In this document: one piece after another, positions 1,997 through 56,578 of the stretch
Layout: each line of letters starts with the position of its first letter
How positions within the stretch are numbered: the stretch's first letter is position 1
DNA from: a virus
Length of the DNA stretch: 64,000 bases
Virus record (IMG/VR): IMGVR_UViG_3300045988_044010
Strand: one strand, 5' to 3'
Made by a program: the position numbers and the translations under genes
The notes under the pieces: generated by a model
The model's input: the letters and a program-made list of their open reading frames with translations, nothing else
What the model was told of the DNA's origin: nothing
The model's database searches: none

Positions 1997-2560
1997 TTAA
2001 TTAGTTAATAATTGTTTTAATTTATCTCGTGCTCTGTTGAGCCGAGATTTAACCTGTGACTCTGTGAGTCCAAGTTGTTCAGATATCTGTTTGTAAGACA
2101 GATTCTGTATCGAACGTAGTTCAATAATATTCCTATACTTAAAGCGTAAGCGTGACAAGGCACTATCTAGCATCGAACGGGTTTCATCGAAGATATAATC
2201 CTCTTCAGGAGAGCAACCTGCAGTGTCACTCAACTGGAAACAACTGTCACTGTCGTCAATCCAATAGTTCGCGCTTTCTTTCTTTGTTCTACGAATATAA
2301 TCAATACTACTATTGATAGCTATAGTTTTTAGCCACATCTCAAATGATATATTTGTTACGTAACTATCTAACTTGCTAAAAGCTTTAACAAAAGTAATAG
2401 ATAATAAATCATCTGCTGCATCTTTATTATTAACAATACGATATATTGTTACATAAATAATCTGCTTATACTTTTCATAAAGCTTAGTAAAGGCAAGCTG
2501 GTTGCCTTCTTTTGCCTGTTTGATCAGTTCGGAAATCTGTTGTTTTTCTAAATCTGTCAT
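1997..2560 (-). CDS. ECF-type sigma-70 family RNA polymerase sigma factor
   Basis: Region-2-like DLLSITFVKAFSKLDSY..FEMWLKTIAINSSIDYIRR and region-4 HTH LSYKQISEQLGLTESQVKSRLNRARDKL. The 187-aa length is typical of group 4 sigmas. Confidence 0.85.
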   Translation of the reverse strand: MTDLEKQQISELIKQAKEGNQLAFTKLYEKYKQIIYVTIYRIVNNKDAADDLLSITFVKAFSKLDSYVTNISFEMWLKTIAINSSIDYIRRTKKESANYWIDDSDSCFQLSDTAGCSPEEDYIFDETRSMLDSALSRLRFKYRNIIELRSIQNLSYKQISEQLGLTESQVKSRLNRARDKLKQLLTN

Positions 2561-3960: not shown

Positions 3961-4165
3961 TGTAGCATTAGAGGGAGTCGAACCCTCTACAGCTCCTACG
4001 TCTGATCTAACCCGATATGCTCCAGCTTTTTACGACATTAGCTTAGCCGTTCGGTTTATCTCACGCTACTAAGCGTGTATAATCCATTACATAACTTGTA
4101 TTGCCAGTTATCTGCTCATTGACCTATTCTACTTCACATTGTCGCTGTCAAATTCATTCAGCCCC
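3961..4165 (-). ncRNA. tmRNA-like coding piece: 5' acceptor strand, D-loop analogue, candidate tag ORF and 3' T-arm-like hairpin
   Basis: 4165-4141 reads GGGGCTGAATGAATTTGACAGCGAC, a tmRNA 5'-end signature. Candidate tag frame 4105-4061 gives GNTSYVMDYTRLVA-TGA, with the stop inside the hairpin CACGCT-TAGT-AGCGTG. A T-arm-like hairpin lies at 3989-3969. Confidence 0.55.
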
Positions 4166-4265
4166 TTTTTGCAGGATTCTCACCTGCTATGAAGCTTTGC
4201 GGCTCTTAACCTAGGAGTGGTTTATACCCTTGCCAGGAGGAATCAAACCTCCATGCTTCTGACCG

Positions 4266-4319
4266 TGGAGCTGGAGGGGATCAAACCCTCGTCCATACGA
4301 CTGATTCATAGACCTAACA
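4266..4319 (-). ncRNA. tmRNA-like acceptor piece: T-arm, 3' acceptor strand and A73
   Basis: 4294-4266 reads GGAC-GAGGG-TTTGATC-CCCTC-CAGCTCC-A. CAGCTCC pairs with GGGGCTG (4165-4159), giving a G3:U70 wobble. It sits upstream of the 5' half on the transcribed strand. Confidence 0.6.
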
Positions 4320-4329
4320 GTCAATTTCT

Positions 4330-4587
4330 TTAAGAAAATGGTATAATTTCATTGGTTAGCATTAATAAAGTTGCTTCACAGAATCCTGACTCCTTGTAGT
4401 ACTCAATGCAATATCCTACATTATCTGTGATATGTACCTCAATAAAATCATTATCATCTACATGTTTTTGATAACTACTTTCATTACTCCAATTTCTAGT
4501 TTGAATAAATCCAGCTTCTTTTAAGTTATTTACTAATGTTTCTTTATCCATTTCTTTAATATTTTTTGTGGCATTGGACGATACCAC
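4330..4587 (-). CDS. hypothetical protein (start more likely ATG at 4551)
   Basis: ORF track. The first 12 codons overlap structured RNA. The ATG at 4551 has the A-rich leader seen at other starts. Confidence 0.6.
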   Translation of the reverse strand: MVSSNATKNIKEMDKETLVNNLKEAGFIQTRNWSNESSYQKHVDDNDFIEVHITDNVGYCIEYYKESGFCEATLLMLTNEIIPFS

Positions 4588-4720: not shown

Positions 4721-5043
4721 GAGTCAGTATTTCTACTGCTCAACACTACTCTAATTGCCGACTTGATATCATGAAAATGCTATTGCATAATATACTCGTC
4801 TGAGTATAGAATCTATACATCTATATTGCGCAATTTAAATATACATCTTCACGATCTTAGGCACATGATCAGTGGCACGTTGTCAAATGTCCTCTCTCCG
4901 GCATCGGTCAGTATTATTACTGCCTTACACTTGTTTGAGTCTACGTTAATTCGTAGAGTAGCTGCTTATTATCAGGGGCAAGCCCTCACCATACGCATTC
5001 ATACCACTACAGCTTCACTATATAGTCAGTATCACTACTGCTA
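4721..5043 (-). repeat. three copies of a conserved bulged-A hairpin at 4721-4741, 4906-4924 and 5023-5043
   Basis: Minus strand: GAG-CAGTA-GAAA-TACTG-A-CTC, GG-CAGTA-ATAA-TACTG-A-CC and TAG-CAGTA-GTGA-TACTG-A-CTA. The upper stem and bulge are identical; the lower stem covaries. Confidence 0.6.
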
Positions 5044-5074
5044 AAGTATCATGCTTGGACTTTGCGTGGAAGTG

Positions 5075-5533
5075 TTATCTTCTCTCCAGAGTAAGATTAC
5101 GCCAATTCCATTCCCAGTTGGCTTTCGGATATTGTTCCGTCAGAGCATTAATCTGCTCGTTCTTCTTCGTGTCGGACTCTCCGATAAGCTTATCTGCGGT
5201 TCGTTTCTTTTCAGCGATTTCTTTGTGGAAGTCATCAATAGAGATGTCGCCGGAATTCAGTTTGTTATCCAGTTCAGTGATCTGTTTTGTGTAGTTAGTA
5301 CTGATCTTCGCAACTTCATTTGCGTGGCGCATATTAATGCAGGTGCGCTTACGAATATACGAACTCATATTTACACAATCCATCAAGCGTGCGGTGAGTT
5401 CTTCCTTACGCTTTTCTGAAATTCGTTTCGCTGCTTCTTCAGCAATCTCTTTTGTTACTGTTGCGTCTTGTTTCAACACAGTGTCGATATTCTCCGCTGT
5501 GATTTCGCTTACTTTTACTTCTTCTTTTGCCAT
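5075..5533 (-). CDS. hypothetical protein (charged, helical)
   Basis: ORF track; longest ORF at this locus. The overlapping + ORFs are shadows. Confidence 0.7.
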   Translation of the reverse strand: MAKEEVKVSEITAENIDTVLKQDATVTKEIAEEAAKRISEKRKEELTARLMDCVNMSSYIRKRTCINMRHANEVAKISTNYTKQITELDNKLNSGDISIDDFHKEIAEKKRTADKLIGESDTKKNEQINALTEQYPKANWEWNWRNLTLERR

Positions 5534-5575
5534 TTTGAAATAGTTTTAAGAGTTTGATACTTTATTTAATTAACA

Positions 5576-5800
5576 CTAAATTATTTCTACAAAATCACAC
5601 GATGTAAAGAAATGAGCTTTTGCATATAAGCAAGTAACTCTCATATAACCTAGTTTAAAGGTTAATGTTACATATTGATGTGTGTCATGTAAGTTTTGAG
5701 CTATTATTTCATCTAGTTTCCCAAAATAGGATATAGCTCTAATCCTTTCAGCAGTATTATCTGTAGGTTTGATCTTAACTACAGTCTTACCACAGTTCAT
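5576..5800 (-). CDS. hypothetical protein (TAG stop)
   Basis: ORF track; ATGA-type overlap with the upstream gene. Confidence 0.55.
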   Translation of the reverse strand: MNCGKTVVKIKPTDNTAERIRAISYFGKLDEIIAQNLHDTHQYVTLTFKLGYMRVTCLYAKAHFFTSCDFVEII

Positions 5801-6111
5801 GCTGCTCTTTTCTTTGCAAGATACTCTTTACGAAGACGTCTCTTGCGTTGTTTGCATGATTCACGTCTGCCTTCTTTAATGAGCTGACGATACTCATAAG
5901 CCAGATACTTACGCATTCTTTCTTCGTTAAGAATACCTAAATATACAGCTTCTCTAGCTAAGTTTTCAGCTGCTTTCTTTTCTCTAGCTTTAACTGCGCT
6001 AGCTATACCTTGTTCTGTGAAACCTCTTCTTTGAAGTCTCTTGATCATTGCATTATATTTCATTTTGATATGAATTTTAAAGTTAAAGAACTGTTCTATG
6101 TATTTGTACAT
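5797..6111 (-). CDS. hypothetical basic protein
   Basis: ORF track; Arg/Lys-rich C-terminus. Confidence 0.6.
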   Translation of the reverse strand: MYKYIEQFFNFKIHIKMKYNAMIKRLQRRGFTEQGIASAVKAREKKAAENLAREAVYLGILNEERMRKYLAYEYRQLIKEGRRESCKQRKRRLRKEYLAKKRAA

Positions 6112-6263
6112 CTTATTTCATAGATATCCCTCATCCTTCTCTCACTTTATCTATAGATTTATAGATTGTCGTTGTATGACCGTTATGTTTGACACATATT
6201 AGGGCTCTGGAAGTATTTACAGTTCTTTTGGGTTGATTGGAATCCACCATACTAACAATTTAA

Positions 6264-6437
6264 TTAGTAATATATAACAGCAGGCAGAGGCTCTGGCGGA
6301 ACCTCTTTGCTTGGACTGTTCTTTGGTATCATTCTGAGCTTACACTCATATTGACATACACTACAGTCAACGATATTGTTGCGTGTAGGACATAATTTTA
6401 CTGGTATTTCTTTACCAGTTAAGTTTGAATCGCTCAT
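6264..6437 (-). CDS. small Cys-rich (zinc-ribbon-like) protein
   Basis: Start trimmed to the ATG at 6437 (MSDSNLTGKE...). Cys cluster: CPTRNNIVDCSVCQYEC. Confidence 0.5.
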   Translation of the reverse strand: MSDSNLTGKEIPVKLCPTRNNIVDCSVCQYECKLRMIPKNSPSKEVPPEPLPAVIYY

Positions 6438-6825
6438 GATCGTCTCGGTTGAACAAATGCTTGCATAACATAGGTTTACACAGTTCTCCAAACATCTTTG
6501 CTTGAGCTTTATCCTTAAATTCTAAGGAAGTACCGACATTAGCAGCGGAAATACCAAGCCCATAGTGAGAATCCACAGCGAGCAACCCAGCAGATTCTTT
6601 ACTTCTGTGATCAGTATATACTAAACCCCAGATGAAATATCTTACTGTATTTTCATCAGCAAGATCTGGCTTCCAGTCTCCTCTGATTGCTTTTGCAATT
6701 GTTTCCAACTTGATGAAGTTCCTAGTTTCATCGCTCAGTTTGTAGCTCTTATAATTAGCTACAGGACTAATTTTTAGCAGTTTGCAAGCATCCTCGTAAG
6801 GATGTTCTTTACTCAATTCTACCAT
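6412..6825 (-). CDS. hypothetical protein
   Basis: ORF track. Same reading frame as 6919..7389, with no stop between them other than one TAG. Confidence 0.65.
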   Translation of the reverse strand: MVELSKEHPYEDACKLLKISPVANYKSYKLSDETRNFIKLETIAKAIRGDWKPDLADENTVRYFIWGLVYTDHRSKESAGLLAVDSHYGLGISAANVGTSLEFKDKAQAKMFGELCKPMLCKHLFNRDDHERFKLNW

Positions 6826-6916
6826 TTTTTGATCTTTTATAAGGTTCCAGCTTCTTATGTTTAGGACGTTTTTTATATTCCGTCTTATTCTTAGTTTCCT
6901 TCTCCTTGTTTGCCAT
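6809..6916 (-). CDS. possible 35-aa Lys-rich peptide
   Basis: Hand-translated MANKEKETKNKTEYKKRPKHKKLEPYKRSKNGRIE. Below the ORF-track size cut-off. Confidence 0.3.
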   Translation of the reverse strand: MANKEKETKNKTEYKKRPKHKKLEPYKRSKNGRIE

Positions 6917-6918
6917 AA

Positions 6919-7389
6919 CTAATAAAGTTTTATCAGTTTGTTGATAATTTTTAGATGATCACCTAAGTGCCTGAGATCATATTTATCCAATATCATCCCT
7001 ATAGGGAGCGGCAAGTATTCGGTTTCTATCAGAAACTTAATTGCTGCTTTATGAGCTCTCAATTTATCATTTCTAGCAATTGCTATAGTAAGAAGCTCAG
7101 CAAAGTTTGGAGCTTCAGAAGAAATGATACTAAGATTGTTTCTTAGATCAACACAGAACTCTTGAACAATCTGATCAATCGGAATAATTTTCTTAGCTGG
7201 GGTAGCTCTTCCTACTAAGATTCCGGCAGTAATTATATCTCCTACTTCAGTATCATTAAGATACTTAATAGATGATTGTGATACTCCGTCTCCATTCACA
7301 TTCTTTACTAAGGTTTTCAGTAAAGCATCTAGTGTCTTTTCATCTGAAGAAGCAAATTCTCCAGTAAAGGTAATGATAATTGCTTTCAT
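6919..7389 (-). CDS. hypothetical protein (TAG stop)
   Basis: ORF track. Confidence 0.65.
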   Translation of the reverse strand: MKAIIITFTGEFASSDEKTLDALLKTLVKNVNGDGVSQSSIKYLNDTEVGDIITAGILVGRATPAKKIIPIDQIVQEFCVDLRNNLSIISSEAPNFAELLTIAIARNDKLRAHKAAIKFLIETEYLPLPIGMILDKYDLRHLGDHLKIINKLIKLY

Positions 7390-7641: not shown

Positions 7642-8088
7642 TTTTTACATAATCTTAAATTGTTAGTTAATAATAATGACGACGCCTAGGGCACTCTAGG
7701 ATAATTTAATAAGACGTGTAAGTGCCTACACGAATCCTACATCAAACGACTTTTCTAGATTGTTAATAAAGAAACCATTTGTTAATAATAAATCTAAGTC
7801 TTTTTTAAGTGTTAAAAATTTATTAGATTAGCTCTCTGTTTAAACACTGAACATATGTTCCTTAGAAGTTGCTAATTCCTAAGTGTGTACCTGATTTTAA
7901 CGTCCGCACGATCGTAATATTTGCAATTATCAGTACTAATTAGAGCAATTGCCACCCTTCTTCTCCCGCTTAAAAATACTACTTACGCCCCACAGGTTTG
8001 TCATCTTCTGATGACGCCACATCTATTCTCACGAACTAATGTAGCTTGGCTGTAAATAAAGTTTAATCTTTACTTCCTTTTTGACTCA

Positions 8089-9785: not shown

Positions 9786-9982
9786 ATTACTGATTATTGA
9801 TTAATACTCTTAAATAATTTAAACACATTAGCTTCGCATGTAAACTAGGAAGGTTTGTTTTTAACATGCTACTGGACCACGTATCGCCACGATGAGGCTG
9901 TGTTTATGATAGGGAAACTACTACAATACCTTATTTGACACGGATTTTACATGTAGTAGTTGATAAAAGATATGTAATACTC

Positions 9983-10378
9983 CTATTTTATTTCAATTTC
10001 AAAGCCATTATACTTAAACTGTCTTTCTATGTTTTCCATAGTCTCTTTGTCTAATTCTTCTGTATATAGCTTTTTCATCGGAATTTTAGTAACATTTGAT
10101 TTATCGTCTGTGTACATATCAACTAAATCTTTTGTTTCCTTTAATCCTGTACTGAAGAGATCTTTTAGTACTTTGATTGCTTGTAATTTGCGAGTTGCTG
10201 TACCTATTATAGTTAATAGTACGTCTTTCTTTGTCTCTTCTCCTGTTATTAAAACAGATAAGAAAGCGTCAATAGCTGGTTCATTAGAGAATGTATCTAA
10301 TGCTTGAGCTAGTTTTTCTTCAGTTATTTGATTACGTACAAATAGACTGTTAAGCACATATTTCTGAATTGAGTTCAT
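9983..10378 (-). CDS. ribosomal protein bL12 (L7/L12) C-terminal-domain homologue with an unrelated N-terminal region (TAG stop)
   Basis: DVLLTIIGTATRKLQAIKVLKDLFSTGLKETKDLVD...GFEIEIK aligns with E. coli L7/L12 [34 protein letters not shown]...GAEVEVK. Confidence 0.7.
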   Translation of the reverse strand: MNSIQKYVLNSLFVRNQITEEKLAQALDTFSNEPAIDAFLSVLITGEETKKDVLLTIIGTATRKLQAIKVLKDLFSTGLKETKDLVDMYTDDKSNVTKIPMKKLYTEELDKETMENIERQFKYNGFEIEIK

Positions 10379-10410: not shown

Positions 10411-11179
10411 AAGCAGAGGTAGTATCATCGTATACTATAATCTTACATGTACTAGATTATAGTATAATATTATCTAAGATAATACTTTCATTGGTGACCT
10501 ATGCTCTGCTTTATAATACTTATTGTTCAGTTAGTATTATACTGTCAAGCACTACAGTTTCATGTAGTTGTACTATTCCCTTGCTTGCTTTGGTTGGTTG
10601 CCATTAAAAAGAGTTGCACCATCACAATGAACCTAATCATGATGCCTCTACCACGTGGATTATAATATAATATAGATATCGTCAGCTTGTGCATTGCAAT
10701 ATTCTATATCTAATATTATATTATTCTTTGACTCTGCTCCATACTAGTTTTTCTAGTACGTCCCTGACTTGTCACAGGTTAACTGTAGCATTAAAGAAAA
10801 GAGTTATAATAATATAGTATGTTAGCGTTACCTAACTATTTACAAGGGCATACCTTACCTCTATTATTATAACTGTACGTGGTCAAACTTATCCATCTCG
10901 GACTTGTAGTTATTTGCATTTCGAAGATTATCTACTTTGCGACAAATCTATTTTATATAATGAGTATTGTTATTCTATTTGAAACTACACTATCTTCACA
11001 GACTATGTAGTTATTACCTTTCTCTAGATTCAAGAAAGGAGGTCTTTCTACAACTATTATTATGGGTTCAAAAAGTTTGGTTAAAACTCTTAATCGCCAC
11101 CGTCTTTCACGGCTTGCGTCAGATTTCCCTACCAAGCTCTTACGAGTATTTATATAATGATAGCACTGATGATTAAGAG
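10411..11179. repeat. series of stem-closed modules and long AT-rich inverted repeats in an ORF-free region
   Basis: Inverted repeats: 10411-10418/10504-10511; perfect 13 bp at 10431-10443/10454-10466; palindrome 10468-10484; 18/19 bp at 10662-10679/10706-10724; 10802-10817/10861-10874; 11087-11095/11171-11179. Confidence 0.6.
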
Positions 11180-19758: not shown

Positions 19759-19834
19759 TGCCCTATGGTGTAATGGTCAAGCACAAGAGGCTCTAACCCT
19801 CTTGGTCTGGGTTCGAATCCTAGTGGGGCTACCA
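19759..19834 (+). tRNA. amber suppressor tRNA, anticodon CUA (reads UAG), encoded CCA
   Basis: Hand-folded cloverleaf. Acceptor 19759-65/19824-30; D-arm GTGT/GCAC; anticodon stem AGAGG/CCTCT with loop CT-CTA-AC (CTA at 19793-95). T-arm CTGGG-TTCGAAT-CCTAG; A73; CCA at 19832-34. Confidence 0.85.
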
Positions 19835-20209: not shown

Positions 20210-22264
20210 ATGGTAGACTTCAATAAATAGATAAAAAATAGCAATAAGTTTAGACAGCCAGCCCTCAAGTTTTTGGAGACTGGCTCTTATTGTTAGTATC
20301 CCGCTGGTACGTCAGAGTACTTTAAATATTGGGATGAATAGATGGACAGATGTAAGTATGGTTATACTGCTGATGATGGAGATTTCATTAGTGGGTATAA
20401 CTATTTTTATTTAAACTTCTGTCCTATTCAAAGGATTATCTATACTACAATTACTAATCCAGACGGATCTACAACTACTAAGAAAACACGTGATTTGTAG
20501 TTCCCAGACTTCTATGACTATGACTATTACTTCTTCTTAGCAGTAGAAGATGCAGAAGAACAAAGTAAACACTTATGCGCACTAAAGAGTAGACGTAAGG
20601 GTTATTCGTATAAGAATGCAGCAATGGCATGTCGTAACTACTATCTATTCGCAGGTAGTAAAACATATATCTATGCTAGTAATAAGCAATATCTAACAGA
20701 GGATGGTATTCTTACTAAAGCATGGGACTATATGGACTTTATAGATAAGAATACAGCTTGGGGTAAGAAGAGATCTGTCAATACTTAGATGCGTAAACGT
20801 GCTGGTTTCTTTACTAAAGATGAATACGGCAATGAGGTTGAGAGCGGTTATAAATCAGAAATCATTGGTGTTACTCTAAAAGATAACCCAGATGTAGTTC
20901 GTGGTAAAGCTGGTAAACTTATTATATTTGAAGAGGCTGGTTCATTCTCTGAACTAGGTGCAGCATGGCAAATTGCTAGACCGTCTGTAGAACAGGATGG
21001 TATTGCGTTTGGTACAATGATTGCATTTGGTACAGGTGGTGATGAAGATAGTCACTTTGAAACACTGAAAGATATGTTCTATAATCCAGATGGTTATAAC
21101 TGTTTAGGATTTAAGAATATATGGGATGAAACTCCATCTGATAAACTATGTGGATTCTTTATTCCTCAGTATACTAATATGGACTTCCGTGATGAGAATG
21201 GTAAACGCGTTTACATGGATGATGATGGTAATACATTATATAAGAAGTCTGTAGAGTATATATTAGCTGAACGTAGAAAGGTAATAGAGAATGCTACTAA
21301 TTCAGTAGCAGTAGACCGTTATGTAGCTGAACACTGTATAACACCACAAGAAGCATGTTTGGAATTTGGTGGTAATATATTCCCTAAGAAAGAATTACAA
21401 GAACAATTAGCTAACATACGTATAAATAAACACCTAAGTAACCACAAATAGGTAGGAGATTTGATATGGGATGCTAATGGTTCTATTAAGTGGGTACTTA
21501 AGAAAACAGGTGATATTACACATTACCCATTGAAAAAAGACGATGACCCAACAGGATCTATAGTTATATGGGAACACCCTGTAAAGGATGCTCCTATTGG
21601 TTTATATATACTTGGGGTAGACCCATATGATCATGACTAGTCAGGTACTAATTCATTAGGCTCTACGTTCGTTTACAAGCGATTCTAGAGCTTTGAAAAC
21701 TATTATGATATAATTGTTGCTGAATACACTGGACGCCCTGCAACAGCAGAAGAATACTATGAAAATCTACGTAAATTAGCAGTTTATTATAATGGTAGAA
21801 TAATGTATGAAAATGAACGTAAAGGTTTATTTCCATACTTTACTGCTAAACATTGTGACTACTTACTTGCTGATCAACCTGACATTATATCTGATATTGT
21901 AGGTAATTCTAAAGTATAGAGAAAGAAAGGTTGCCATATGAATAAATAGATCAAGCAGTGGGGAGAAGGCTTGATTAAAGATTGGTTAAATGATGAACAA
22001 GCCCCCGGTAAAAAGAACCTACATAACATACTATCAGAGCCGCTATTAGAAGAACTTATAAGCTATAATGATACAGGAAACTTCGATAGAGTCATGGCGT
22101 TGATGCAGGTAATGATTTATAGAGAATAGCTCTATAATCTAAAGGTTAAAGAGAAGAAAAAAGAGAATAGAGATAGGGTCTTATTTGATGGACCAATCTT
22201 TACTCAAGAGTGGTATCATGACGATGATATCATTAATGATAATATAGAAGCATATATGTTTTAA
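20210..22264 (+). CDS. terL: terminase large subunit (684 codons, 11 in-frame TAG)
   Basis: One frame from the ATG at 20210 to the TAA at 22262. TAGs at 20228, 20294, 20339, 20498, 20786, 21449, 21638, 21686, 21917, 21947 and 22127. ATPase/nuclease-type segments: GKLIIFEEAG, GTGGDEDSHF, LGVDPYDHD. Confidence 0.85.
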
Positions 22265-30811: not shown

Positions 30812-31417
30812 ATGATTGGAAATATTTATAAAATTACAGATACAACAAACAATAAGGTTTATATAGGTCAAACTAAAAGGGATATAATGAGAAGATATTC
30901 CGATCACATATCTCATGCATTTGTATCCAAACGCCCCAATGATTTATCTTGTGTACTCTATATAGCAATGAGGGAGCATGGAATTCAAAATTTCATACCA
31001 GAGTTAATAGAAACTATAGAAGGTAATCCTAAAGAAATAGATAAGAGAGAAAGATATTGGATATCTTATTATGACTCTACTAACCCTGATAAAGGTTACA
31101 ATAAGGATAAAGGTGGACACATTATATCAGAAGCATGTAGAAAAGCTGCAGAAAAACATCTATTTAAAGCTGGAGACAAGTTAACTGGTAAGATGTTAGA
31201 GATAGCTAGAGAAAATGGAATGAAAGTAGCAAAATCTGTATGTCAGATAAACAAGCATACTGGAGAAATAATTGCTGAGTTTCCTTCCATTATAGAAGCT
31301 AGTAGATCTACAGGATGTGATAGAAGATCAATACAAAGACAATTGAAAGGAGAATATGGCAAATTAACACCTAGATCTTTCTCAAACCTTAAGTATATCT
31401 GGAGATACAAAGAATAA
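30812..31417 (+). CDS. GIY-YIG homing endonuclease (TAG-free)
   Basis: GNIYKITDTTNNKVYIGQT...RRYSDH...RERYWISYY matches the GIY-YIG motif order. C-terminal repeats resemble DNA-binding modules. Confidence 0.8.
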   Translation: MIGNIYKITDTTNNKVYIGQTKRDIMRRYSDHISHAFVSKRPNDLSCVLYIAMREHGIQNFIPELIETIEGNPKEIDKRERYWISYYDSTNPDKGYNKDKGGHIISEACRKAAEKHLFKAGDKLTGKMLEIARENGMKVAKSVCQINKHTGEIIAEFPSIIEASRSTGCDRRSIQRQLKGEYGKLTPRSFSNLKYIWRYKE

Positions 31418-42182: not shown

Positions 42183-45100
42183 ATGGTAAGATTTGTTAAT
42201 TTTAGAGCAAGTGATATATAGCCCAATCCTGATGAAGTAATGTACTGGGTTGACCTTAATACTGATCCACTTGGTGGTAGTATAAAGGTATGGAATGCAG
42301 AAGGATATTGGGAGACTATAAAAGTACTTCAAGGAACTCTACCTGAATTTGAAAACAGAATAAAGAAATGGGTAGAACAACAATTAAAGAACTTTGATGA
42401 GCATCTGAATGAAGAGATACGTCAATTTGACGGTAGGATTGCTATCATAAGTTAGGATATAGAGACATTAAAACTAACTAAATAGGATAAACTTATTGCT
42501 GGTTCAGGCATAGATATTACTGATAATGTAGTATCATGTGTACTGGATCTAACTTTATATAAGATAGTATCAGAACTGCCTACAGAAGATATTGATACTA
42601 CTAAGATATATCTAGTAGTTGATAGTGAAGGTACTCATGGTAATCTCTATAAAGAGTATATCTATGTAGATGGAGAGTGGGAACTGTTGGGCGAATATAA
42701 AGCCGATATAGATCTATCTCCTTATCTTACTAAGGTAGAAGCTGCTGATACTTATGCTACTAAACTAGAACTGCAACAAGAAGTAAATCGTGCAACACAA
42801 GCAGAGGTTACTGAGAAGAATAGAGCATTAGCTGCAGAGGAACAACTGTCTAAAGACATTGATGCAGAAAAGGATAGAGCTCTTATTGCAGAAAGAGATA
42901 ACTTCAACCGTATTATAAATGAAATTGCACGTGCAGAAGCTGCAGAAAAAGCTAATGCTAAAGCAATAGAAGATGAGGCAAAGCGTGCTATAGAAATTGA
43001 AACAGCTCTTGCTTCAGGAATGGTAGAAGAACAGAACAGAGCAATTGAAGCGGAAGAACAGTTACAAGGTGAAATATGGGCTGTAGATGCTAAAATATCT
43101 GAACAGGGTGGTTCTTTAATTGATGCTATAAATTCTAATACACAAGCTATAGCTGATGAAACTGCTAGAGCTACTCAAGCTGAAGATAATAATAGGAATC
43201 TTATTAATGCAATGGATACAGCTTATAAGGCTGCTGATACTGCAACTAACACTAAATTAGACAATGAGATTACTAGAGCTAAAGCAGCTGAGAAAACAAA
43301 TGCAGATGCTATAGTAGTAGAAGCGGATCGTAATGATGCACAAGATACTTTAATCAGCAATCTGCAATCAAGCAAAGTTTCTACTGTTAACTTAGTATAG
43401 GATCCTGATAATGAGTTACATTATACATTGATGGTAGACTCTACTAATGCTGGTGAAATAAGCATACCTAAGGATAGATTCTTAAAGCAAGCTTATTACG
43501 ATCCACAGAAGAAGAGCCTTATTTTTATATTTGTAACTGAGGATGGTGAACAAACTGTACCTGTAGATATTAGCGATCTAGTAGATACATATACTGCCGG
43601 TAATGGTTTAAGTCTAGCGAATAATAAGTTTAGCATTACTATTGATAGTACTTCTGATTCTTACTTAACTGTAGGAGCTAATGGAATCAAATTATCTGGT
43701 GTAGCAGCAGCTATTAACAAACTAGATACTGACTATAAAGCAGCAGATACTGCAACTCTTAATTCAGCTAAAGCATATACAGATACTAAAGCATCTGATA
43801 TAACTGATGCAGTTACACAACTACAATCAGATATAGAAGCTGAAGAAATCAGAGCTACAGATGCAGAGAATAGATTGGCAGGACAAATATTTGCGTTAGA
43901 CGCTGCGAAACAAGAAAGACTAGTTAGTGGTGAAACCATTAAGACTGTCAATGGTAGTTCATTACTAGGAGCTGGTAACATTGTTATTGAAGGTGGTAGT
44001 AGTGGAGGAATTGATGATGCTCCATCTGATAGTAAAGAATACGTTAGAAAGAATGCAGCATGGTCAGCATTACCTACTAGATCTGTAACTCCAGTTGCTG
44101 ATTCGTTAGTATAGAGAGACGGTTCAGGTAATCTGATAATTAATAAAGGCTCCATTAATTTCAACAATAATATGGAATGGTGGATGCAGGTTAATTCTGA
44201 TGGTAACTTCATACTTAACAGTACTGGTAATGCAAATAAGTTCTTATATCATGGAGACGAAGTAGGTACTTTAAAGAATCTTTATGTTTTGAAAGAAACA
44301 CTAATAGATACTACATCATTAGATCAATACACATACTATCCTGTAACTATAGAAATATCTTCAGCTTATAATTCTAGAATAGAAGTTCATTCAGCATTAT
44401 ATCTTTCTGGTACACCAGAATGGTCTACACATGGCAATGGATTTACTACTCATTTTATAGAAGAAGTTTATGGTAGTGGATGGGGAGCTAATTATTCTAC
44501 TCACAGAAGAATAATTGATTACCAATATAAATATACTAATAATGTACAACCTATTGGTAAAGTAAGACAGATGGGAAATTCCTCAGAAGAGGTCATTTGG
44601 GTAAGAGGGGGAGCTAAGTATTATTTTGAAACTAGTAGAAACGCTACTCCTATATTACATACCGTTGCTTACACGAATAGTAATGATACGGTGTATCCTA
44701 CAGGAGCTGCTGATATGACTAATGCCGATTATAGTACTCTTAAAAGAACTATGGTTGAAACTTCTGATACGAATGTTTCTGCTACTGGAGATTCGCTTGT
44801 AAAAAGAGATGGTAACGGTAGTATAATAAATATCAGTTATTAGACTACACAAAGAGTAAATGACGATGGAACTATATCTGTTATCTGGGTAGACAATGGA
44901 GATGGTTGGTTAAGACGAAGAACTTTATCTAGCTTTAAAACACAAATATCAGGTACAGGTCTAGATGCAGATACATTAGATGGTCAATAGGATACTGCTT
45001 ATTTAAGATATAGAAGTACTACGACAACGCATGATGATAATACACTATGGGATAAGATAGGTATTAAAGAATATTCTTCAGCTAATCCAGATCAGCTAGA

Positions 45101-47024
45101 TGCGCCGTTTAATTATGGAGCCGCTATATCATTACCTGCAGGTTCGAGAAGATTTGATATATGGTATTCTGATAACTCGTCAACTAATTCTACTTAGAGA
45201 GGAATATTCTATAGAACTGGTTGGAATGTAACTAAAAATCCATGGGTTAGATTTTTAGATGCCAATGATATGAGTGCTACTAATACAGCAGACAAAATTC
45301 CAGTTAGAGACGCTAACAAACAGATACTAACTAGTGGTTATAAGAAAGAAGGATCTAGTGATTCATACGTACTACTTGGTGGTGGAGGTCATGTACTGTT
45401 GGCAAAAGGAACAACTGGTAATACTATGGTACAGAGAGATGCTGATGGTATTGTATATGGTAAGTATTTTTACACAGAACAAGAAGATGAAGCAGCTGGT
45501 ACATCTATATCTTCAGTGTATATAAAGAGTACAGATAAAATTATTAGAAGAGTATCCTTTGCTAACTTTAAATCAGCATTAAACATTCCTTCTGCATACA
45601 CATTACCAACCGCATCTAGTACTACTTTAGGAGGTATCAAGGTAGGAGCAGGATTGTCTATTAGTAATGGAGTATTATCTGCTAATGGAGGTGGCACAGC
45701 TGATTCAGTTGCATGGGCTAACGTAACAGGAAAGCCAACGTGGATTGGAACTACTAAACCAACTTACAGGCTAGACGAGATAGCTTCATCTACTAATCAA
45801 ACTGTAGATGCTAGTACTACCCCTGTATCTAGAAAGAAGATAGTTTATGTAGGCAAATCAGGTAATGGATGTATTAGTGCTGTAGCTTTAGGTATACGTA
45901 ATGTAAATGGATCATTTGGTCCAGCTGTATTATCGTTAGGAACTAAAGATACGCCATCAGATACAGCAGCTATTGATGACGGATGGGTAGATTACCAATT
46001 CCAAACTAGTGGTAGAGTTGTATCTAAAGCAGGTACATTTGCTGTCACTTCTGATATTCCTACTTCATTAAAGAATCCTAACGCCATTAAGTTTACAGGA
46101 GCAGTTACGGGTACTTATGATGGTTCTTCTGCTGTTACTTTGAATATACCAACTATTGCTGGACCAAAAGGCGATACTGGTGAGAAGGGAGAAAAAGGTG
46201 ATTAGGGTCCGTAGGGTTTGAAAGGTGACACTGGGGATCAAGGACCTAGAGGATATGCTGGTTCAGATGGAGCTAATGGTAAATCGTTAGAGTTTGTATG
46301 GAGTGGTTATACTCTTGGTGTAAGACAAGAAGGTACTACATCATATACTTATTCAACTAGTTTACGTGGAGCAACTGGAGCGAAGGGTGATAAAGGAGAT
46401 AAGGGTGATACAGGTCCAGCTGGTACTACAACGTGGTCTGGTATTACTGGAAAACCATCATGGATTGGTAGTAGCAAACCAACGTATACATGGTCGGAAA
46501 TCACAAGTAAGCCATCATGGATCGGTTCAAGTAAACCTTCCTATTCATATTCAGAAATATCTGGTACTCCATCTCTTGCTGATGTAGCCACATCTGGATC
46601 ATATAATGATCTAAGTAATAAACCAGTTATTGATACTGCTCTATCTTCTACTAGTACAAATGCAGTTCAGAACAAAGTAATATATGAATAGTTAGTAAAG
46701 AAGGCTGAGATAGTAGGATATTAGGCAGGTTAGAATGGTTACATAAAGTTTGACAATGGTTTATTAATGCAATGGGGGTATAAAACAGCAAGTTCTACTG
46801 GTACTAATACTACTTATACACCTATAGCTTTTTATAATGCTACATATGTTCCCGTTATTACTTATTATGAACCGGGCAACGGTATGAATATTGTCACAGG
46901 TCTTATTATAAATAAACAGACTAGTTATTTCACGATAAGGAGTAGATATACAGTGGGAGATTCAAACGGTACTGGCGCGGGAACCAATGATTTTTATTGG
47001 GTAGCCGTTGGTAGATGGAAATAA
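42183..47024 (+). CDS. second giant tail fibre with coiled-coil and collagen-like segments (1613 codons, about 13 in-frame TAG)
   Basis: Track ORFs 42240, 42687, 43428, 44172, 45270, 46218 and 46767 share the frame of the ATG at 42183. Collagen-like run GPKGDTGEKGEKGD-TAG-GP-TAG-GLKGDTGDQGPRG. Fibre-type C-terminus ...FYWVAVGRWK. Confidence 0.75.
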
Positions 47025-48130: not shown

Positions 48131-49399
48131 ATGAAATTACAGAATAATGACATAATAGCAGCTTATCTAGGTGCTTAGACTATTTCTGATATTAATTTAG
48201 GAGATAACAATGTCTTCTCTAATTACTATGGAGTTAGCTTTCCATTAGAACCTCAGAATACTCTTATGACTAGAATAGGTTATATGCCTTGGCATAAGTC
48301 ATTACCTATTCAATCTAAAATGAAAACATGTACTATTACTTCTGATGGTACTGTTAAATATATCAATGCATCTGATAGAACTAAGTATGAAGATGGAACT
48401 GACAGAGATATGACGCTTAATACTATGGTAGAAATACCTGAATTCTGGTATAAGTGTATGAAGAATGATACAGACGTTTTCCTTAACTTGTATGTTAATG
48501 ATCCTAAACTAGCAGACGTGGAACATGTAACTAAATTCTATATTTCAGCATATGAGGCTACTACAGTAGATGATAAGTTGATGTCAGTTAATAATGGTTC
48601 TACCCCTACAGTATCTATCCCCAGAACTACTATGCAATCTAGAGCTAGAGCAAATGGTAGTGAAAAATGGAATATGTATACTTATAAAGCACATAGAATA
48701 CTTACTATTCTTTACTTAGTAGAATACGCATGTACTAATAGTCAAGCAACTTACAATGCTACATTAACTTCAGAAGGATATAGACAAGGCGGACTTGGCG
48801 CAGGTGTAACTGGTGCAGGTCAACCAGTTAAGAACGGTTCTAATATATACTCAATTGTTCCATGTGGCACCACAGATTCTTTAGGTAATTCTACGGGTGT
48901 GGTTTCGTTTGCTTGGAACAATACTAATGCAGAAGGTGCTACTACATCTACATTCAATTATAATGTACCTAGTTATAGAGGTGTTGAGAATCCATTTGGA
49001 CACTTATGGAAGAATGTAATAGATGCATTAGTACACTTTAACTCTACTGATAATTGTAATGATGTAATGTTGAATAGTAATCTCGCTACATTTGGTTCAA
49101 CCACAATAGGTGATTATACATTACAAGGGCAGACAACAATTAGAGAAGGATATAAAAAGCAGTTGATATATAACTCTGCCTTTGATTTATTCCCATCTAA
49201 AGACGAAGCATTTGGAGGAAATACTACAACATATTGGTGTGATTATAATTACAGCAATAATAGTACATCAGACAGAACTATCCTTTTGGGTGGTAGCGCG
49301 GCTCACGGCGGTATTGCTGGGTTGCTCCATGTGGGTTCTAACAATGGGCTTGGTCATTCCTATGCTTCTGTCGGTACTCGGTTAATCTATATACCGTAA
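48131..49399 (+). CDS. DGR target protein (receptor-binding candidate) with C-terminal variable region
   Basis: ATG at 48131 is in frame with track ORF 48266, through 1 TAG. The last 39 codons contain the VR. Confidence 0.8.
49283..49383 (+). repeat. DGR variable repeat (VR)
   Basis: 101-nt alignment to 49441-49541. All 24 substitutions sit opposite TR adenines, apart from one non-A mismatch at 49380. Confidence 0.9.
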
Positions 49400-49440
49400 A
49401 AATATAGAATTTTATTGAAAAATAATAGGTTGTTCTCTTG

Positions 49441-49541
49441 CATTTAGGTAGTAACACGACTAACAGCAGTAATGCTAGGTTACTCAATGTGAATTCTAAC
49501 AATGAGCTTAGTAATTCCAATGCTAATGTCAGTACACTGAT
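49441..49541 (+). repeat. DGR template repeat (TR)
   Basis: 35 adenines, 24 of them changed in the VR. In the VR frame it reads AAC/AAT-rich. Non-coding, 41 nt after the target stop. Confidence 0.9.
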
Positions 49542-49662
49542 CCCCAAAACAGAAAAAATATTTAAAGAAGCACTGTTAGAGAAGACCTTACCTCTTGGTA
49601 AAAAACGACATTTTAAAACACTGTATTAGTAGCGCAAGCGAAAATTCGGTATGGGATTTCAG

Positions 49663-50685
49663 ATGAAAAGATATAATAATTTATTTGAACAGATTGTTAG
49701 CTTAGACAATCTACGTCTAGCTGAAAAGAAAGCTAGAAAAAACAAGACTCACAGACCAGAAGTTATTGAGTTCGATAAGAATAAAGAACAGTTACTGTTA
49801 GAGTTATAGAAAATGTTAATTGATGGTACATATGTGACATCTCCGTATTATATCTATAAGATATATGAACCAAAAGAAAGAGAAATCTTTAGGTTGCCAT
49901 ATTATCCAGATAGAATAGTACACCACGCAATAATGAATATATTAGAACCTATATGGGTTTCAACCTTCGTGAAAGGTACATATAGTTGCATTAAGAAACG
50001 TGGTATTCATAAAGCTATGAGAGATGTAAAAGAATCATTAAAGGACATACAAGGAACTCAGTATTGTCTAAAGTTAGATATCAGAAAGTTCTATCCTTCA
50101 ATTGATAATGATATACTCAAACAAGTAATAAGAAGAAAGATAAAGGACGTTAAGTTATTAAATCTATTAGATAGTATAATAGACTCTGCTGAAGGAGTAC
50201 CTATTGGAAATTACTTATCACAATTCTTTGCAAACTTATATTTAACTTATCTAGATCACTATATTAAGGAAGTTCAGAAAGTTAAACACTATTTCAGATA
50301 TGCAGATGATATTGTAATATTACATAGTGATAAGAAATATCTTAGATATCTATATGAAGATATTAAGGATTATTTAGAGAATAAACTTAATTTACATTTC
50401 AAAGATAACTGGCAGATATTTAAAGTAGATTCTAGAGGAATAGATTTTGTAGGATACAGATTGTTTCATACACATATACTTCTTAGAAAGAGAATCAAAC
50501 AAAACTTCTGCAGAAAGATAACAAAACTAAATAAAAAAGATATTGATAAGGATGATTATAAACAAAAAATATGTAGTTATATAGGTTGGATTAAACATTG
50601 TAATGGAAGGAATTTGTTCAGTAAAATGTTGAAATATAAAGAGCTATTAGAATACGTTAACATCCATAGACCAAGTAAAACATAA
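49663..50685 (+). CDS. DGR reverse transcriptase (1 in-frame TAG at 49807)
   Basis: MKRYNNLFEQIVSLDNLRLAEKKARKNK...; DGR-type motif VPIGNYLSQFFANLYL; catalytic YADDIVIL. Confidence 0.9.
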
Positions 50686-55399: not shown

Positions 55400-55845
55400 C
55401 ACACAGAAAATCTTACACAATAAGTGACTTCTATTAGTTCTACCTATCTAATATTGAAAGAGATACTGTATATGATATTGATTATAAAGTGTACAGACAA
55501 ATAATAGAAGACTATTTTAAATTTATAGCAGACTAGGTTATTGAACATAGTAGAGAATTTAAACTACCATGCAGATTGGGTAATCTAAGTATAGTGAAAC
55601 GTAGACCTAAGAACTTTGATAATAAGAGTCTAAGGATTGATTATCATGAAAGTGCTATACAAGGTAAAGCAGTATACTTTATCAACGAACATTCCAATTT
55701 TTTTAAATTCAGATTTTTGTGGTCAAAAAAAGACAGTCTTCTAAAAAATAAAACCAGATATTAGTTTGTTGCCACCAGAGCAAACAAGAGAAGATTAGCA
55801 CAAATAATAAAAAATAGAGAGCATGATTACGTGGAGATTCGCTGA
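55396..55845 (+). CDS. hypothetical protein (3 in-frame TAG)
   Basis: ATGA overlap with the previous gene; in frame with track ORF 55576. Confidence 0.5.
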
Positions 55846-56578
55846 TGTTAACAAATTACCTGAGGAATCTGGTATTTATATGATATTGAATATATTAAAC
55901 AATCATAAATACGTAGGTAGCACCAATAACTTTAAGAGAAGACTAACCAGACATCGCGGAGAATTACGTAAGGATAAACATCATTCCACTTACTTGTAGA
56001 GGGCGTATAATAAATATGGTGAAGACAAATTCATAATATATATACTAGAGAGATGTTAGCCTATAAAAGATACTTTGATATATTTAGAGTAGAAGTATTT
56101 GGATTTAAATCCAGAATATAATATCGAGAAAGTAGCAGATAGAAGATTTACTAAATAGGCAAAGATAAAAACAAATAAGGTAAAGCATCCAATACAACAA
56201 TATAGTTTAGACGGTAATTTTATCAGAGAATTTGACAGTATAACACAGGCAGCCAAATGGTGTGGAAATAAAAACAAACACCCTCAAATATCTTTGTGTT
56301 GTTAGGGTAAATTGATCCAAGCGTGCGGGTATCTATGGAAATATAAGAATGATGATAGAAGCATTATGCAAGTAACAAAACAACCTTGTGATAAAGGAAT
56401 AAAAGTTGATCAATTAGACATAAACGGGAACTATATTAAAACTTATGATAATATGAGAATAGCTGCAGAATCAAATGGATCAATACAAAATAGATCTGCT
56501 ATAAATAGAGTATGTAGAGGATAGAAGAAAACAGCTTTTGGGTATAAGTGGAGATACCATACAAATAATATATTATGA
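55823..56578 (+). CDS. GIY-YIG homing endonuclease (6 in-frame TAG)
   Basis: SGIYMILNILNNHKYVGSTNNFKRRLTRH...HHSTYL-TAG-RAYNKYGEDKF. The TAG sits where I-TevI has Gln (HSSIKLQRSFNKHG). Confidence 0.75.

What the first reader, a model, noticed from the sequence alone, without database searches (positions are those of the whole stretch)
48131..50685. Complete diversity-generating retroelement targeting the C-terminus of a fibre-cluster protein
**Repeat alignment.** VR 49283-49383 and TR 49441-49541 align over 101 nt with no gaps.
- 24 of the 35 TR adenines differ in the VR (A to G, C or T).
- 65 of the 66 non-adenine positions are identical. The single exception is T49538 versus G49380, at the 3' edge where IMH-type differences are expected.

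**Codon design.** In the target frame the TR reads as AAC/AAT-rich codons, with the adenines at codon positions 1 and 2. This is the classic DGR design.

**RT.** The adjacent RT carries the DGR-type IGNYLSQFFANLYL motif and YADD.

**Target.** The target sits directly after two fibre genes and a short fibre-like protein, so it is very likely a receptor-binding protein.

DGRs are an established class, also in Bacteroides phages.
Basis: partly seen in the sequence, partly recalled or inferred. Interest (0 to 1): 0.7.

Follow-up and report, generated by a model that had tools for sequence, protein, structure and literature searches.

The report
Active crAss-like phage DGR, two targets

Summary
VR 49283-49383 and TR 49441-49541 align without gaps; 24 of 25 mismatches fall on TR adenines (P about 1e-13).

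The reverse transcriptase (RT) matches the Bordetella phage DGR enzyme bRT best (E 4e-52). The target models confidently (pLDDT 95.8), and its closest solved folds are DGR variable proteins (TaqVP, Mtd) and formylglycine-generating enzyme.

Sixteen distinct VR/TR pairs from related contigs share the TR, but their VRs differ at the ten AAY codons. Non-adenine TR variants are mirrored in the VRs. The element therefore appears active.

- **Recoded TAG.** The phage (Crassvirales, Suoliviridae-like) reads TAG as glutamine in late genes. Target and RT each carry an in-frame TAG, and the "two fibre genes" are one 1613-aa ORF.
- **Second VR.** VR2 (6530-6594, minus strand) lies in a 137-aa hypothetical protein. 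It is hypervariable in 40 related loci and follows each genome's own TR.
- **No Avd.** No Avd gene was found, yet the TR is bracketed by an 11-bp long-range helix plus a hairpin and an A-run. This resembles the BPP-1 "cPRT Stop" and is supported by covariation.
- **Isolated adenines.** Those followed by G almost always appear as G in the VR.

Verdict: a new member of a known kind.

The parts
48131..49399 (+). Target gene 1 (422 aa; tail-module protein; one in-frame TAG at 48176-48178 read as Gln)
   Evidence: ORF under TAG=sense. phrog_5302 'tail protein', E 9.5e-76. AF2 model of residues 46-422 has pLDDT 95.8. Foldseek top hits are TaqVP 5vf4 (E 1.6e-10), FGE, Mtd 1yu0-4 and TvpA 2y3c. Its 90%-identity cluster holds 2469 member sequences.
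49283..49383 (+). VR1 (variable repeat). The diversified core is about 49288-49373; the 3' end 49370-49383 carries fixed IMH-type differences from the TR.
   Evidence: 24/35 TR-A differ and 65/66 non-A are identical. In 16 distinct VRs, all ten AAY codons vary and the edge differences are invariant.
49386..49408 (+). Inverted repeat TCTATAT/ATATAGA straddling the stop codon. It is a weak candidate for the hairpin that follows the IMH in BPP-1.
   Evidence: Conserved in relatives, with one compensatory change (CCTATAT/ATATAGG in cr52-like genomes). Folding energy is not significant (z -1.1). Inconclusive.
49427..49438 (+). 5' strand of long-range helix P1 (AGGTTGTTCTCT), immediately upstream of the TR
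   Evidence: RNAalifold and pair counts: 11 bp, 100% paired in 10 sequences, 6 pairs with compensatory changes. The motif is unique in the window.
49441..49541 (+). TR (template repeat), non-coding, with ten AAY codons in the target frame
   Evidence: nearly invariant across strains whose VRs differ. The rare non-A TR variants are mirrored in the VRs of the same genome.
49529..49540 (+). Small TR-specific hairpin TCAG-TACA-CTGA at the TR 3' boundary; the fixed TR/VR differences lie in it
   Evidence: Predicted. No covariation, so suggestive only.
49578..49588 (+). 3' strand of long-range helix P1 (AGAGAAGACCT)
49589..49605 (+). Hairpin P2 (TACC-TCTT-GGTA) abutting P1, followed by five unpaired adenosines (49601-49605)
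   Evidence: A-U to G-C compensatory change in 3 of 10 sequences. The A-run is conserved in all groups. The layout matches the BPP-1 'cPRT Stop' (bioRxiv 10.1101/2023.10.23.563531).
49620..49650 (+). Hairpin P3, just upstream of the RT start codon
   Evidence: 9 pairs, 3 with compensatory changes.
49663..50685 (+). DGR reverse transcriptase (340 aa; an alternative but unconserved ATG at 49651; in-frame TAG at 49807-49809 read as Gln)
   Evidence: Best PDB match is bRT 8ub7_A, E 4.2e-52 over residues 6-326, and the TAG codon aligns with bRT Gln. RVT_1 E 6e-17. phrog_1423 E 4.5e-126. GxxxSQ and YADD motifs are present. All 86 near-full-length (335 codons or more) RT reading frames recovered for this clade carry 1-7 in-frame TAG, and codons 10 and 130 alternate TAG with CAG/CAA.
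6412..6825 (-). Target gene 2 (137 aa, hypothetical protein, no known domain)
   Evidence: Stand-alone 134-137-aa ORF in 40 related loci. No Pfam hit. phrog_11581, unknown function. Annotated 'hypothetical protein' in five RefSeq crAss-like genomes.
6530..6594 (-). VR2: a second variable repeat matching TR 49471-49535, in frame, codons 78-99 of target 2
   Evidence: 65 nt, 15 mismatches, all at TR adenines (P 8e-10). Hypervariable at AAY sites in 40 loci. In the 15 genomes where VR2 and the TR could be paired, it follows that genome's own TR. VR1 and VR2 are the only TR-like copies in the window.
19759..19834 (+). Amber-suppressor tRNA (anticodon CUA), needed to translate the RT and target 1 in full
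   Evidence: ARAGORN. Rfam tRNA, 57 bits. It sits just upstream of the TAG-rich late operon that starts at 20210.

Best explanation
The finding is an active diversity-generating retroelement of the Avd-less, Bacteroidota-phage type, carried by a crAss-like phage close to Suoliviridae/Loutivirinae.

Proposed mechanism:
1. An RNA spanning the TR and the 110-nt spacer is made. It folds so that sequence just upstream of the TR pairs with the spacer (helix P1). P1 is followed by hairpin P2 and an adenosine run.
2. The RT copies the TR from its 3' end and stops at P1. This fits the 5' limit of TR/VR homology at 49441, three bases after P1.
3. Template adenines are copied unfaithfully. In AAY codons any base appears. 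At adenines followed by G, and largely those followed by C, the outcome is almost always G.
4. The cDNA replaces VR1 at the C-terminus of a C-type-lectin/FGE-fold tail protein. It also replaces VR2 in a separate 137-aa protein, 43 kb away on the other strand.
5. Fixed differences at the 3' ends of the repeats (GTCGGTACT in both VRs, GTCAGTACA in the TR) keep the TR from being overwritten.
6. The RT and target 1 each contain an in-frame TAG, so the full-length proteins can only be made once the phage's CUA suppressor tRNA is active.

Shown here: the repeat anatomy, RT family, fold of target 1, RNA helices, natural hypervariation and TR-to-VR correspondence.

Inferred by analogy with BPP-1: cis-priming, stopping at P1, the role of the 3' differences, and expression timing.
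For: - Repeat statistics.
- RT: best match is bRT, full length, E 4e-52. R74 and I181 equivalents are conserved by my reading of the alignment. GxxxSQ and YADD are present.
- Fold of target 1: pLDDT 95.8. The top PDB hits are DGR variable proteins (TaqVP, Mtd, TvpA), together with formylglycine-generating enzymes of the same fold.
- Activity:
  - 16 distinct VR1 sequences go with an almost invariant TR.
  - AAY adenines read A 36%, G 35%, C 16%, T 13%.
  - Non-A positions are 1038 the same and 21 different, of which 16 are the fixed 49380 site.
  - TR variants in L010, L018/25/26 and L019/29 are mirrored at the non-A sites of their VR1. VR2 does the same.
  - The 90% clusters of target 1 and target 2 hold 2469 and hundreds of member sequences.
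- RNA: P1, P2 and P3 are 99.6% paired, with 10 covarying pairs against 0-2 in the slid controls. The layout matches the BPP-1 cPRT Stop.
- TAG = Gln:
  - 1-17 in-frame TAG codons occur in most late ORFs.
  - A suppressor tRNA is present.
  - TAG alternates with CAG/CAA between strains.
  - A collagen-like G-X-Y repeat runs in phase across a TAG.
  - Published mass-spectrometry confirmation exists for Suoliviridae (PMC10136315).
Against: - No experiment or read-level data. The variation is between assembled contigs, mostly from one IMG dataset, not within one population.
- No Avd was found in the 24 window ORFs screened against Pfam (14 within about 8 kb of the cassette). BPP-1 requires Avd, so the enzymology may differ. 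The lineage is, however, reported to lack avd (PMC5758913, PMC7290462).
- The hairpins after VR1 and VR2 are weak, and there is no GC-rich IMH as in BPP-1.
- The priming site is not identified.
- The near-fixed G at isolated adenines means part of the TR/VR difference is not diversification. Its cause is unresolved.
- The fold and role of target 2 are unknown.
Confidence: 0.92

Rival explanations
1. Fossil DGR. The repeats and RT gene remain, but the element no longer works. The in-frame TAG codons in the RT and target would then be inactivating nonsense mutations.
For: Under the standard code the RT is split into 52-aa and 290-aa ORFs, and target 1 loses its first 45 residues. The related genome cr109_1 kept the target but lost the TR and RT.
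Against: TAG is a sense codon throughout the late genes, and a CUA tRNA is present. TAG alternates with CAG/CAA in the RT of sister strains, and the 86 near-full-length RT reading frames recovered from the clade all carry TAGs. The TAG aligns with Gln in bRT. Strains 94-99% identical have unrelated VR1 and VR2 sequences but the same TR, and TR point variants have been copied into the VRs.
Confidence: 0.04
2. The VR/TR similarity is an ordinary duplication kept alike by gene conversion. Diversifying selection on a receptor-binding tip produces the differences, and the neighbouring RT (group II intron-, retron- or defence-type) is unrelated.
For: Tail-tip proteins are commonly under diversifying selection. 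NCBIfam gives sub-threshold hits to group II intron, Drt3a and retron RT models.
Against: Mismatches fall on TR adenines with P about 1e-13 for VR1 and 8e-10 for VR2. Four-fold degenerate sites also change, which protein-level selection does not explain. bRT is the best structural-database match by more than 30 orders of magnitude over intron and retron RTs. No intron or retron RNA was found by Rfam.
Confidence: 0.01
3. The apparent hypervariation among contigs is an assembly artefact: chimeras between the two VRs and the TR in short-read metagenome assemblies.
For: Some IMG/VR contigs carry a VR-like, adenine-depleted sequence at the TR locus (L035, L048, L057, L062, L105). That could be mis-assembly across the 100-nt repeat. 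Most contigs come from one dataset (3300045988).
Against: Variation is seen in independent sources: IMG/VR, ENA, Logan and RefSeq. VR sequences contain base combinations present in neither the TR nor the other VR. Non-A positions stay clean (0.5% differences).
Confidence: 0.03

Closest known systems
Bordetella phage BPP-1 DGR (mtd / avd / TR / brt)
   Same: - The RT is homologous over its full length (E 4e-52).
- It shows adenine-specific TR-to-VR transfer.
- The VR is at the C-terminus of a C-type-lectin-fold tail protein.
- The TR is bracketed by an 11-bp upstream:spacer duplex with one bulged base, then a short tetraloop hairpin, then adenosines. This is the 'cPRT Stop' layout.
   Different: - No Avd gene was found.
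- The template uses mostly AAT rather than AAC codons.
- There is no GC-rich IMH or strong hairpin after the VR.
- It has two targets, not one.
- The RT and target carry in-frame TAG codons in a recoded phage.
DGRs of crAss-like phages: crAssphage LMMB (alpha, PMC7290462), epsilon (PMC11054128), zeta (PMC12386605)
   Same: - The cassette order is target-VR-TR-RT without avd, at the end of the tail module.
- The RT has the GxxxSQ motif.
- The target has a C-terminal C-type-lectin domain.
- Amber codons inside DGR RT genes are already reported for zeta phages.
   Different: - This phage is closest to Suoliviridae/Loutivirinae (about 80% nt identity to Buchavirus and relatives).
- The papers I read describe DGRs for the alpha, epsilon and zeta groups, not this family. 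The RefSeq records of cr60_1 and cr52_1 do annotate the RT and an Mtd-like tail protein.
- The non-adjacent second target is not annotated in those records.
Lineage 3 / CLec3 DGRs of Bacteroides and relatives (Wu et al. 2018, PMC5758913)
   Same: Architecture is target-TR-RT. The lineage lacks avd. Phage-associated DGRs often have non-adjacent targets within 50 kb.
   Different: Membership of lineage 3 was not tested by phylogeny here. It is inferred from the architecture, the missing avd and the published placement of another crAss DGR.
TaqVP (PDB 5VF4), Thermus aquaticus DGR variable protein
   Same: It is the best structural match to target 1 (Foldseek E 1.6e-10, probability 1.00, TM about 0.5).
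   Different: Sequence identity is only 12%. No sequence-level hit to any PDB entry or Pfam family was found.

Membership tests
Diversity-generating retroelement (DGR) | Reverse transcriptase of the DGR clade (GxxxSQ in motif 4, YxDD catalytic motif) | tested here: met
   IGNYLSQ and YADD are present. The best solved-structure match is bRT, E 4.2e-52, against 1e-18 for retron or group II RTs.
Diversity-generating retroelement (DGR) | TR/VR repeat pair whose differences are confined to TR adenines | tested here: met
   VR1: 24 of 25 mismatches at adenines (P 8.6e-14). VR2: 15 of 15.
Diversity-generating retroelement (DGR) | VR lies in frame near the 3' end of a protein-coding target; TR adenines sit mainly in AAY codons | tested here: met
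   VR1 ends 16 nt before the stop codon, and the TR has ten AAY codons in frame. VR2 is in the same codon phase but is followed by 37 codons.
Diversity-generating retroelement (DGR) | Variable protein with a C-type-lectin/FGE (or Ig) fold that displays the VR | tested here: met
   Target 1: AF2 pLDDT 95.8. Foldseek hits TaqVP, FGE, Mtd and TvpA.
Diversity-generating retroelement (DGR) | Natural hypervariation restricted to adenine-templated sites, with an invariant TR | tested here: met
   16 distinct VR1 and 41 VR2 sequences were compared. The comparison is between contigs, not reads of one population.
Diversity-generating retroelement (DGR) | IMH/IMH* difference at the 3' end, and a hairpin downstream of the VR | tested here: inconclusive
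   Fixed differences exist: GTCGGTACT in VR1 and VR2 against GTCAGTACA in the TR. There is no GC-rich IMH, and the inverted repeats after both VRs are weak.
Diversity-generating retroelement (DGR) | Structured RNA around the TR (upstream:spacer duplex, hairpin and adenosines = cPRT Stop) | tested here: met
   P1 has 11 bp with 6 covarying pairs, followed by P2 and an A-run. Compared with the description in bioRxiv 10.1101/2023.10.23.563531.
BPP-1-type DGR (Avd-dependent) | Accessory variability determinant (Avd) gene next to the TR/RT | tested here: not met
   There is no ORF between VR1 and the RT other than one overlapping the TR. No Avd-family Pfam hit in the 24 window ORFs screened (14 within about 8 kb of the cassette). 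Not every ORF of the window was scanned.
Wu et al. lineage 3 (Avd-less, CLec3) DGRs | RT falls in lineage 3 of the DGR RT tree | not tested
   No reference tree was available. Inferred from the target-TR-RT order, the missing avd and the published placement of crAssphage LMMB.
TAG-recoded (code 15) crAss-like phage | In-frame TAG in late genes, a suppressor tRNA, and TAG/Gln codon interchange | tested here: met
   The literature reports the same for Suoliviridae.

The most novel reading that the evidence does not exclude
The second target is a conserved 135-137-aa protein with no known domain. It is encoded among TAG-free, opposite-strand (presumably early) genes. It may not be a virion receptor-binding protein but an intracellular protein, for example one that binds a variable host defence or surface-synthesis factor. 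The phage would then use one TR to diversify both an adsorption protein and a non-structural protein. Separately, the RT of this Avd-less lineage may copy adenines followed by G as G almost deterministically. If so, AGY codons in the TR would effectively encode glycine.
Probability: 0.2. Interest if true: 0.7.

Novelty: new member of a known kind. Interest (0 to 1): 0.42.

Why it matters
DGRs in gut phages are thought to let phages follow rapidly changing Bacteroidota surfaces. This case adds four things to that picture.
- It provides a well-supported, apparently active example in a Suoliviridae-like crAss phage.
- The same template also rewrites a second, unannotated protein that is conserved across the clade. 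That gives a concrete lead on what else such phages diversify.
- The RNA "cPRT Stop" architecture known from the Avd-dependent Bordetella element is kept in an Avd-less lineage, which bears on how these enzymes work without Avd.
- The RT and target 1 are only intact under TAG=Gln. Standard-code DGR finders would therefore split or miss such elements.

Tried and rejected
- **First structure prediction.** An alignment of 36 close homologues failed (pLDDT 26.6). Adding distant representatives from the 50%-cluster search fixed it.
- **Sequence searches for target 1.** Searches against PDB and Pfam/NCBIfam found nothing. Only the fold search was informative.
- **Sequence and profile searches for target 2.** Pfam, PDB profile and hhalign against target 1 gave no fold assignment.
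- **Exact-pattern search for the VR2 flank** in IMG/VR found nothing. A protein-based search worked.
- **Single-sequence folding of TR plus spacer** was not more stable than shuffles (z 0.58). Only comparative analysis revealed the helices.
- **Hairpins downstream of VR1 and VR2** are not significant. No promoter or terminator signal stood out above shuffles.
- **Rfam** has no family covering the TR/spacer.
- **Explanations considered for the near-fixed G at isolated adenines:**
  - Rejected as the sole cause: selection for glycine. Four-fold degenerate GCA, GGA and TCA sites followed by G are G in 46 of 48 cases.
  - Rejected: isolated mismatches are simply never transferred. Isolated non-A TR variants are transferred.
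  - Not rejected: G:T-biased repair of a heteroduplex, or a 3'-neighbour-dependent RT bias of the kind reported for bRT (PMC12875486).
- **An early script mis-anchored VR2**. It was redone on alignment columns.
Full report
**Observation.** VR 49283-49383 and TR 49441-49541 align over 101 nt without gaps. 24 of the 35 TR adenines differ (14 to G, 6 to T, 4 to C). 65 of 66 other positions are identical, the exception being T49538/G49380. The chance that at least 24 of 25 mismatches fall on the 35 adenines is 8.6e-14. The repeat finder recovers the pair on its own. The RT translation contains PIGNYLSQFFANLYL and YADD.

**Genetic code.** Under the standard code both DGR genes are broken. The target's first 45 codons end at TAG 48176-48178, and the RT is split at TAG 49807-49809.
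- Treating TAG as sense gives long plus-strand ORFs from 20210 onwards, most carrying 1-17 in-frame TAGs. The minus-strand genes before 17 kb have almost none.
- A tRNA with anticodon CUA lies at 19759-19834, just before the TAG-rich block.
- In the alignment to bRT, the RT's TAG falls on a glutamine.
- In sister strains, RT codons 10 and 130 alternate between TAG and CAG/CAA. All 86 near-full-length (335 codons or more) RT reading frames recovered for the clade carry 1-7 in-frame TAGs.
A collagen-like G-X-Y repeat runs in phase across the TAG that separates them.
- TAG-to-Gln recoding is already documented for Suoliviridae (PMC10136315). Amber codons in DGR RT genes are documented for zeta crAss-like phages (PMC12386605).

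**Host genome.** The closest records are crAss-like phages of Suoliviridae/Loutivirinae.
- The DGR region is 72-76% identical to Buchavirus cr60_1, cr52_1 and cr109_1. The packaging, head and adjacent late-gene region (20210-44000) is about 77-82% identical, over 28-50% of its length, to these and related genomes.
- cr60_1 and cr52_1 have the same cassette. Their records call the target [quoted passage not shown].
- cr109_1 keeps the target but has no TR or RT.

**The proteins.**
- The RT's best solved-structure match is the Bordetella phage enzyme bRT (8ub7_A, E 4.2e-52, residues 6-326). Retron and group II intron RTs score 1e-18 or worse. By my count on that alignment, the residues matching bRT R74 and I181 are conserved.
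- The conserved start is ATG 49663. The ATG at 49651 is not conserved in relatives.
- Target 1 has no Pfam, NCBIfam or PDB sequence match. It does hit a PHROG "tail protein" family.
- A first AlphaFold run on close homologues failed. With 49 diverse homologues the model reached pLDDT 95.8 and pTM 0.94.
- Foldseek then placed it next to TaqVP (E 1.6e-10), formylglycine-generating enzymes, Mtd and TvpA. These are the known DGR variable proteins, together with formylglycine-generating enzymes of the related fold.

**Activity.** Exact and protein-based searches brought in related contigs from IMG/VR and metagenomes.
- Within the window's own species there are 16 distinct VR1/TR pairs. The TR is nearly invariant while VR1 differs.
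- Adenines in the ten AAY codons read A 36%, G 35%, C 16%, T 13%.
- Non-adenine positions are identical in 1038 of 1059 cases, and 16 of the 21 exceptions are the fixed 49380 site.
- Rare TR variants are mirrored at the non-adenine positions of the VR in the same genome. Examples are T>C in L010, AAT>TAT in L018/25/26, and five changes in L019/29. This is the expected signature of TR-to-VR transfer.
- The 90%-identity cluster of target 1 holds 2469 member sequences, with variation concentrated in the VR-coded residues.
- This is variation between assemblies, not reads from one population.

**A second target.** Scanning the window with the TR while ignoring adenines gave one further hit. At 6530-6594 on the minus strand, 65 nt match TR 49471-49535 with 15 mismatches, all at adenines (P 8e-10).
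- It lies in frame, in the same codon phase as VR1, at codons 78-99 of a 137-aa ORF (6412-6825).
- Homologues are stand-alone 134-137-aa ORFs in 40 IMG/VR loci. They are annotated "hypothetical protein" in five RefSeq crAss-like genomes.
- In all these loci the VR2 segment varies at the AAY-templated sites. In the 15 genomes where VR2 could be paired with the TR of the same contig, it follows that TR.
- The family forms 962 clusters at 90% identity.
- No other TR-like copy exists in the window.
- Only the VR-coded 46 columns align with target 1. Pfam and PDB profile searches are empty, and the PHROG hit has unknown function. Its fold and role are therefore open.
- Non-adjacent targets within 50 kb are known for phage DGRs (PMC5758913). 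This is an extension of the finding rather than a new principle.

**RNA architecture.** Comparative folding of the region from just upstream of the TR to the RT start, in five sequence groups, predicts three elements:
- A long-range helix P1 (49427-49438 with 49578-49588), 11 bp with one bulged G.
- An abutting hairpin P2 (49589-49600), followed by five adenosines.
- A hairpin P3 (49620-49650).

On ten sequences, 99.6% of cells pair and ten pairs show compensatory changes, six of them in P1. Slid controls give 0-2. The single sequence is not unusually stable.

This layout matches the "cPRT Stop" seen by cryo-EM in BPP-1: an 11-bp upstream:spacer duplex with one unpaired base, then a short tetraloop hairpin, then adenosines that make A-minor contacts. 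There it both terminates cDNA synthesis and is required for it (bioRxiv 10.1101/2023.10.23.563531). Here the TR/VR homology begins three bases after P1, as that model predicts. That survey covered DGRs with Avd.

In this window no Avd gene is present next to the cassette or among the 24 window ORFs screened. This agrees with reports for crAss and "lineage 3" DGRs.

**Boundaries.** The differences at 49284 and 49378-49382 never vary. Both VRs read GTCGGTACT where the TR reads GTCAGTACA. I take these as the IMH/IMH*-type distinction. There is no GC-rich IMH. The inverted repeats after VR1 (49386-49408) and VR2 (6512-6528) are weak.

**An unexplained bias.** Over 68 unique TR/VR pairs from the clade, the outcome at a TR adenine depends on its 3' neighbour:

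| 3' neighbour | Observations | A | G | C | T |
|---|---|---|---|---|---|
| A | 679 | 24% | 32% | 19% | 25% |
| T | 578 | 46% | 18% | 23% | 13% |
| C | 287 | 29% | 63% | 4% | 4% |
| G | 442 | 5% | 95% | under 1% | 0% |

- VR2 shows the same pattern.
- Selection for glycine at AGY>GGY cannot be the whole story. Four-fold degenerate GCA, GGA and TCA sites followed by G are G in 46 of 48 cases.
- A dominant effect of the 3' neighbour, and a preference for dC misincorporation, were recently measured for bRT (PMC12875486). The near-complete conversion seen here is stronger than the roughly 31% average reported there.
- It could be enzymatic, or it could reflect biased repair. I cannot tell which.
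That allows up to about 15^10 protein variants for VR1 and 15^7 for VR2, counting 15 amino acids per AAY codon from general DGR knowledge.

**Verdict.** The element is a new member of a known kind. Three things add value: the missed second target, the recoded reading frames, and the covariation-supported RNA structure in an Avd-less lineage.

Noticed in passing
window 20210-63838 (+), tRNA 19759-19834: Late genes use TAG as a sense codon (1-17 in-frame TAG in most ORFs). An amber-suppressor tRNA (CUA) sits just upstream. Minus-strand genes before 17 kb are almost TAG-free, so the code appears to switch between early and late genes.
   Followed up: yes
window 42183-47024 (+): The 'two fibre genes' are one 1613-aa ORF with 13 TAG codons. 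A collagen-like G-X-Y repeat continues in phase across the TAG at 46206-46208.
   Followed up: yes
window 4853-4957, 6084-6240, 7889-8015, 10514-10724 (all minus strand): Rfam hits above gathering score: RAGATH-20, RAGATH-9, a Hatchet ribozyme and RAGATH-7. They are interspersed with the small early genes, and RAGATH-9 lies about 170 nt downstream of target gene 2.
   Followed up: no
TR/VR pairs of 68 related loci (L004-L105); window sites 49288, 49324 and others: TR adenines followed by G appear as G in the VR in 95% of 442 observations, including four-fold degenerate sites. Adenines followed by C give A or G only. Adenines followed by A or T give all four bases. This points to a context-dependent mutational spectrum or biased repair.
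   Followed up: partly
L035, L048, L057, L062, L105 (TR locus): In five IMG/VR contigs the TR position itself carries a G-rich, adenine-depleted, VR-like sequence flanked by TR-type sequence. This is either self-homing that destroyed the template or an assembly chimera across the repeat.
   Followed up: no
L003 (NC_055892.1, cr109_1) 4953-6962: This relative keeps the target-1 homologue followed directly by the holin gene, with no TR or RT. It also keeps a target-2 homologue. It looks like a natural DGR-loss variant.
   Followed up: partly
L131/L056 (cr60_1, NC_055891.1): VR1 and VR2 of cr60_1 share the same diversified bases over about 30 nt, including a non-adenine T>C. This suggests one cDNA served both sites, or VR-to-VR gene conversion.
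   Followed up: no
window 6829-7389 (-) and 6412-6825 (-): A 156-aa ORF ends at a TAG and is in frame with target gene 2, with no other stop between them. This holds in all nine strains of this species but not in Buchavirus relatives. Amber suppression late in infection would yield a 325-aa fusion protein.
   Followed up: partly
window 3970-4358 (-): ARAGORN calls a permuted tmRNA here, and the cr60_1 RefSeq record annotates a tmRNA at a similar place. Rfam finds no tmRNA at gathering threshold.
   Followed up: no
window 1997-2560 (-), 9947-10378 (-), 30812-31417 (+), 55823-56578 (+): An ECF-type sigma factor (Sigma70_r2/r4) and a protein with a ribosomal L7/L12 C-terminal-like domain. By eye only, two ORFs with GIY-YIG-like N-termini sit inside the late operon.
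   Followed up: no
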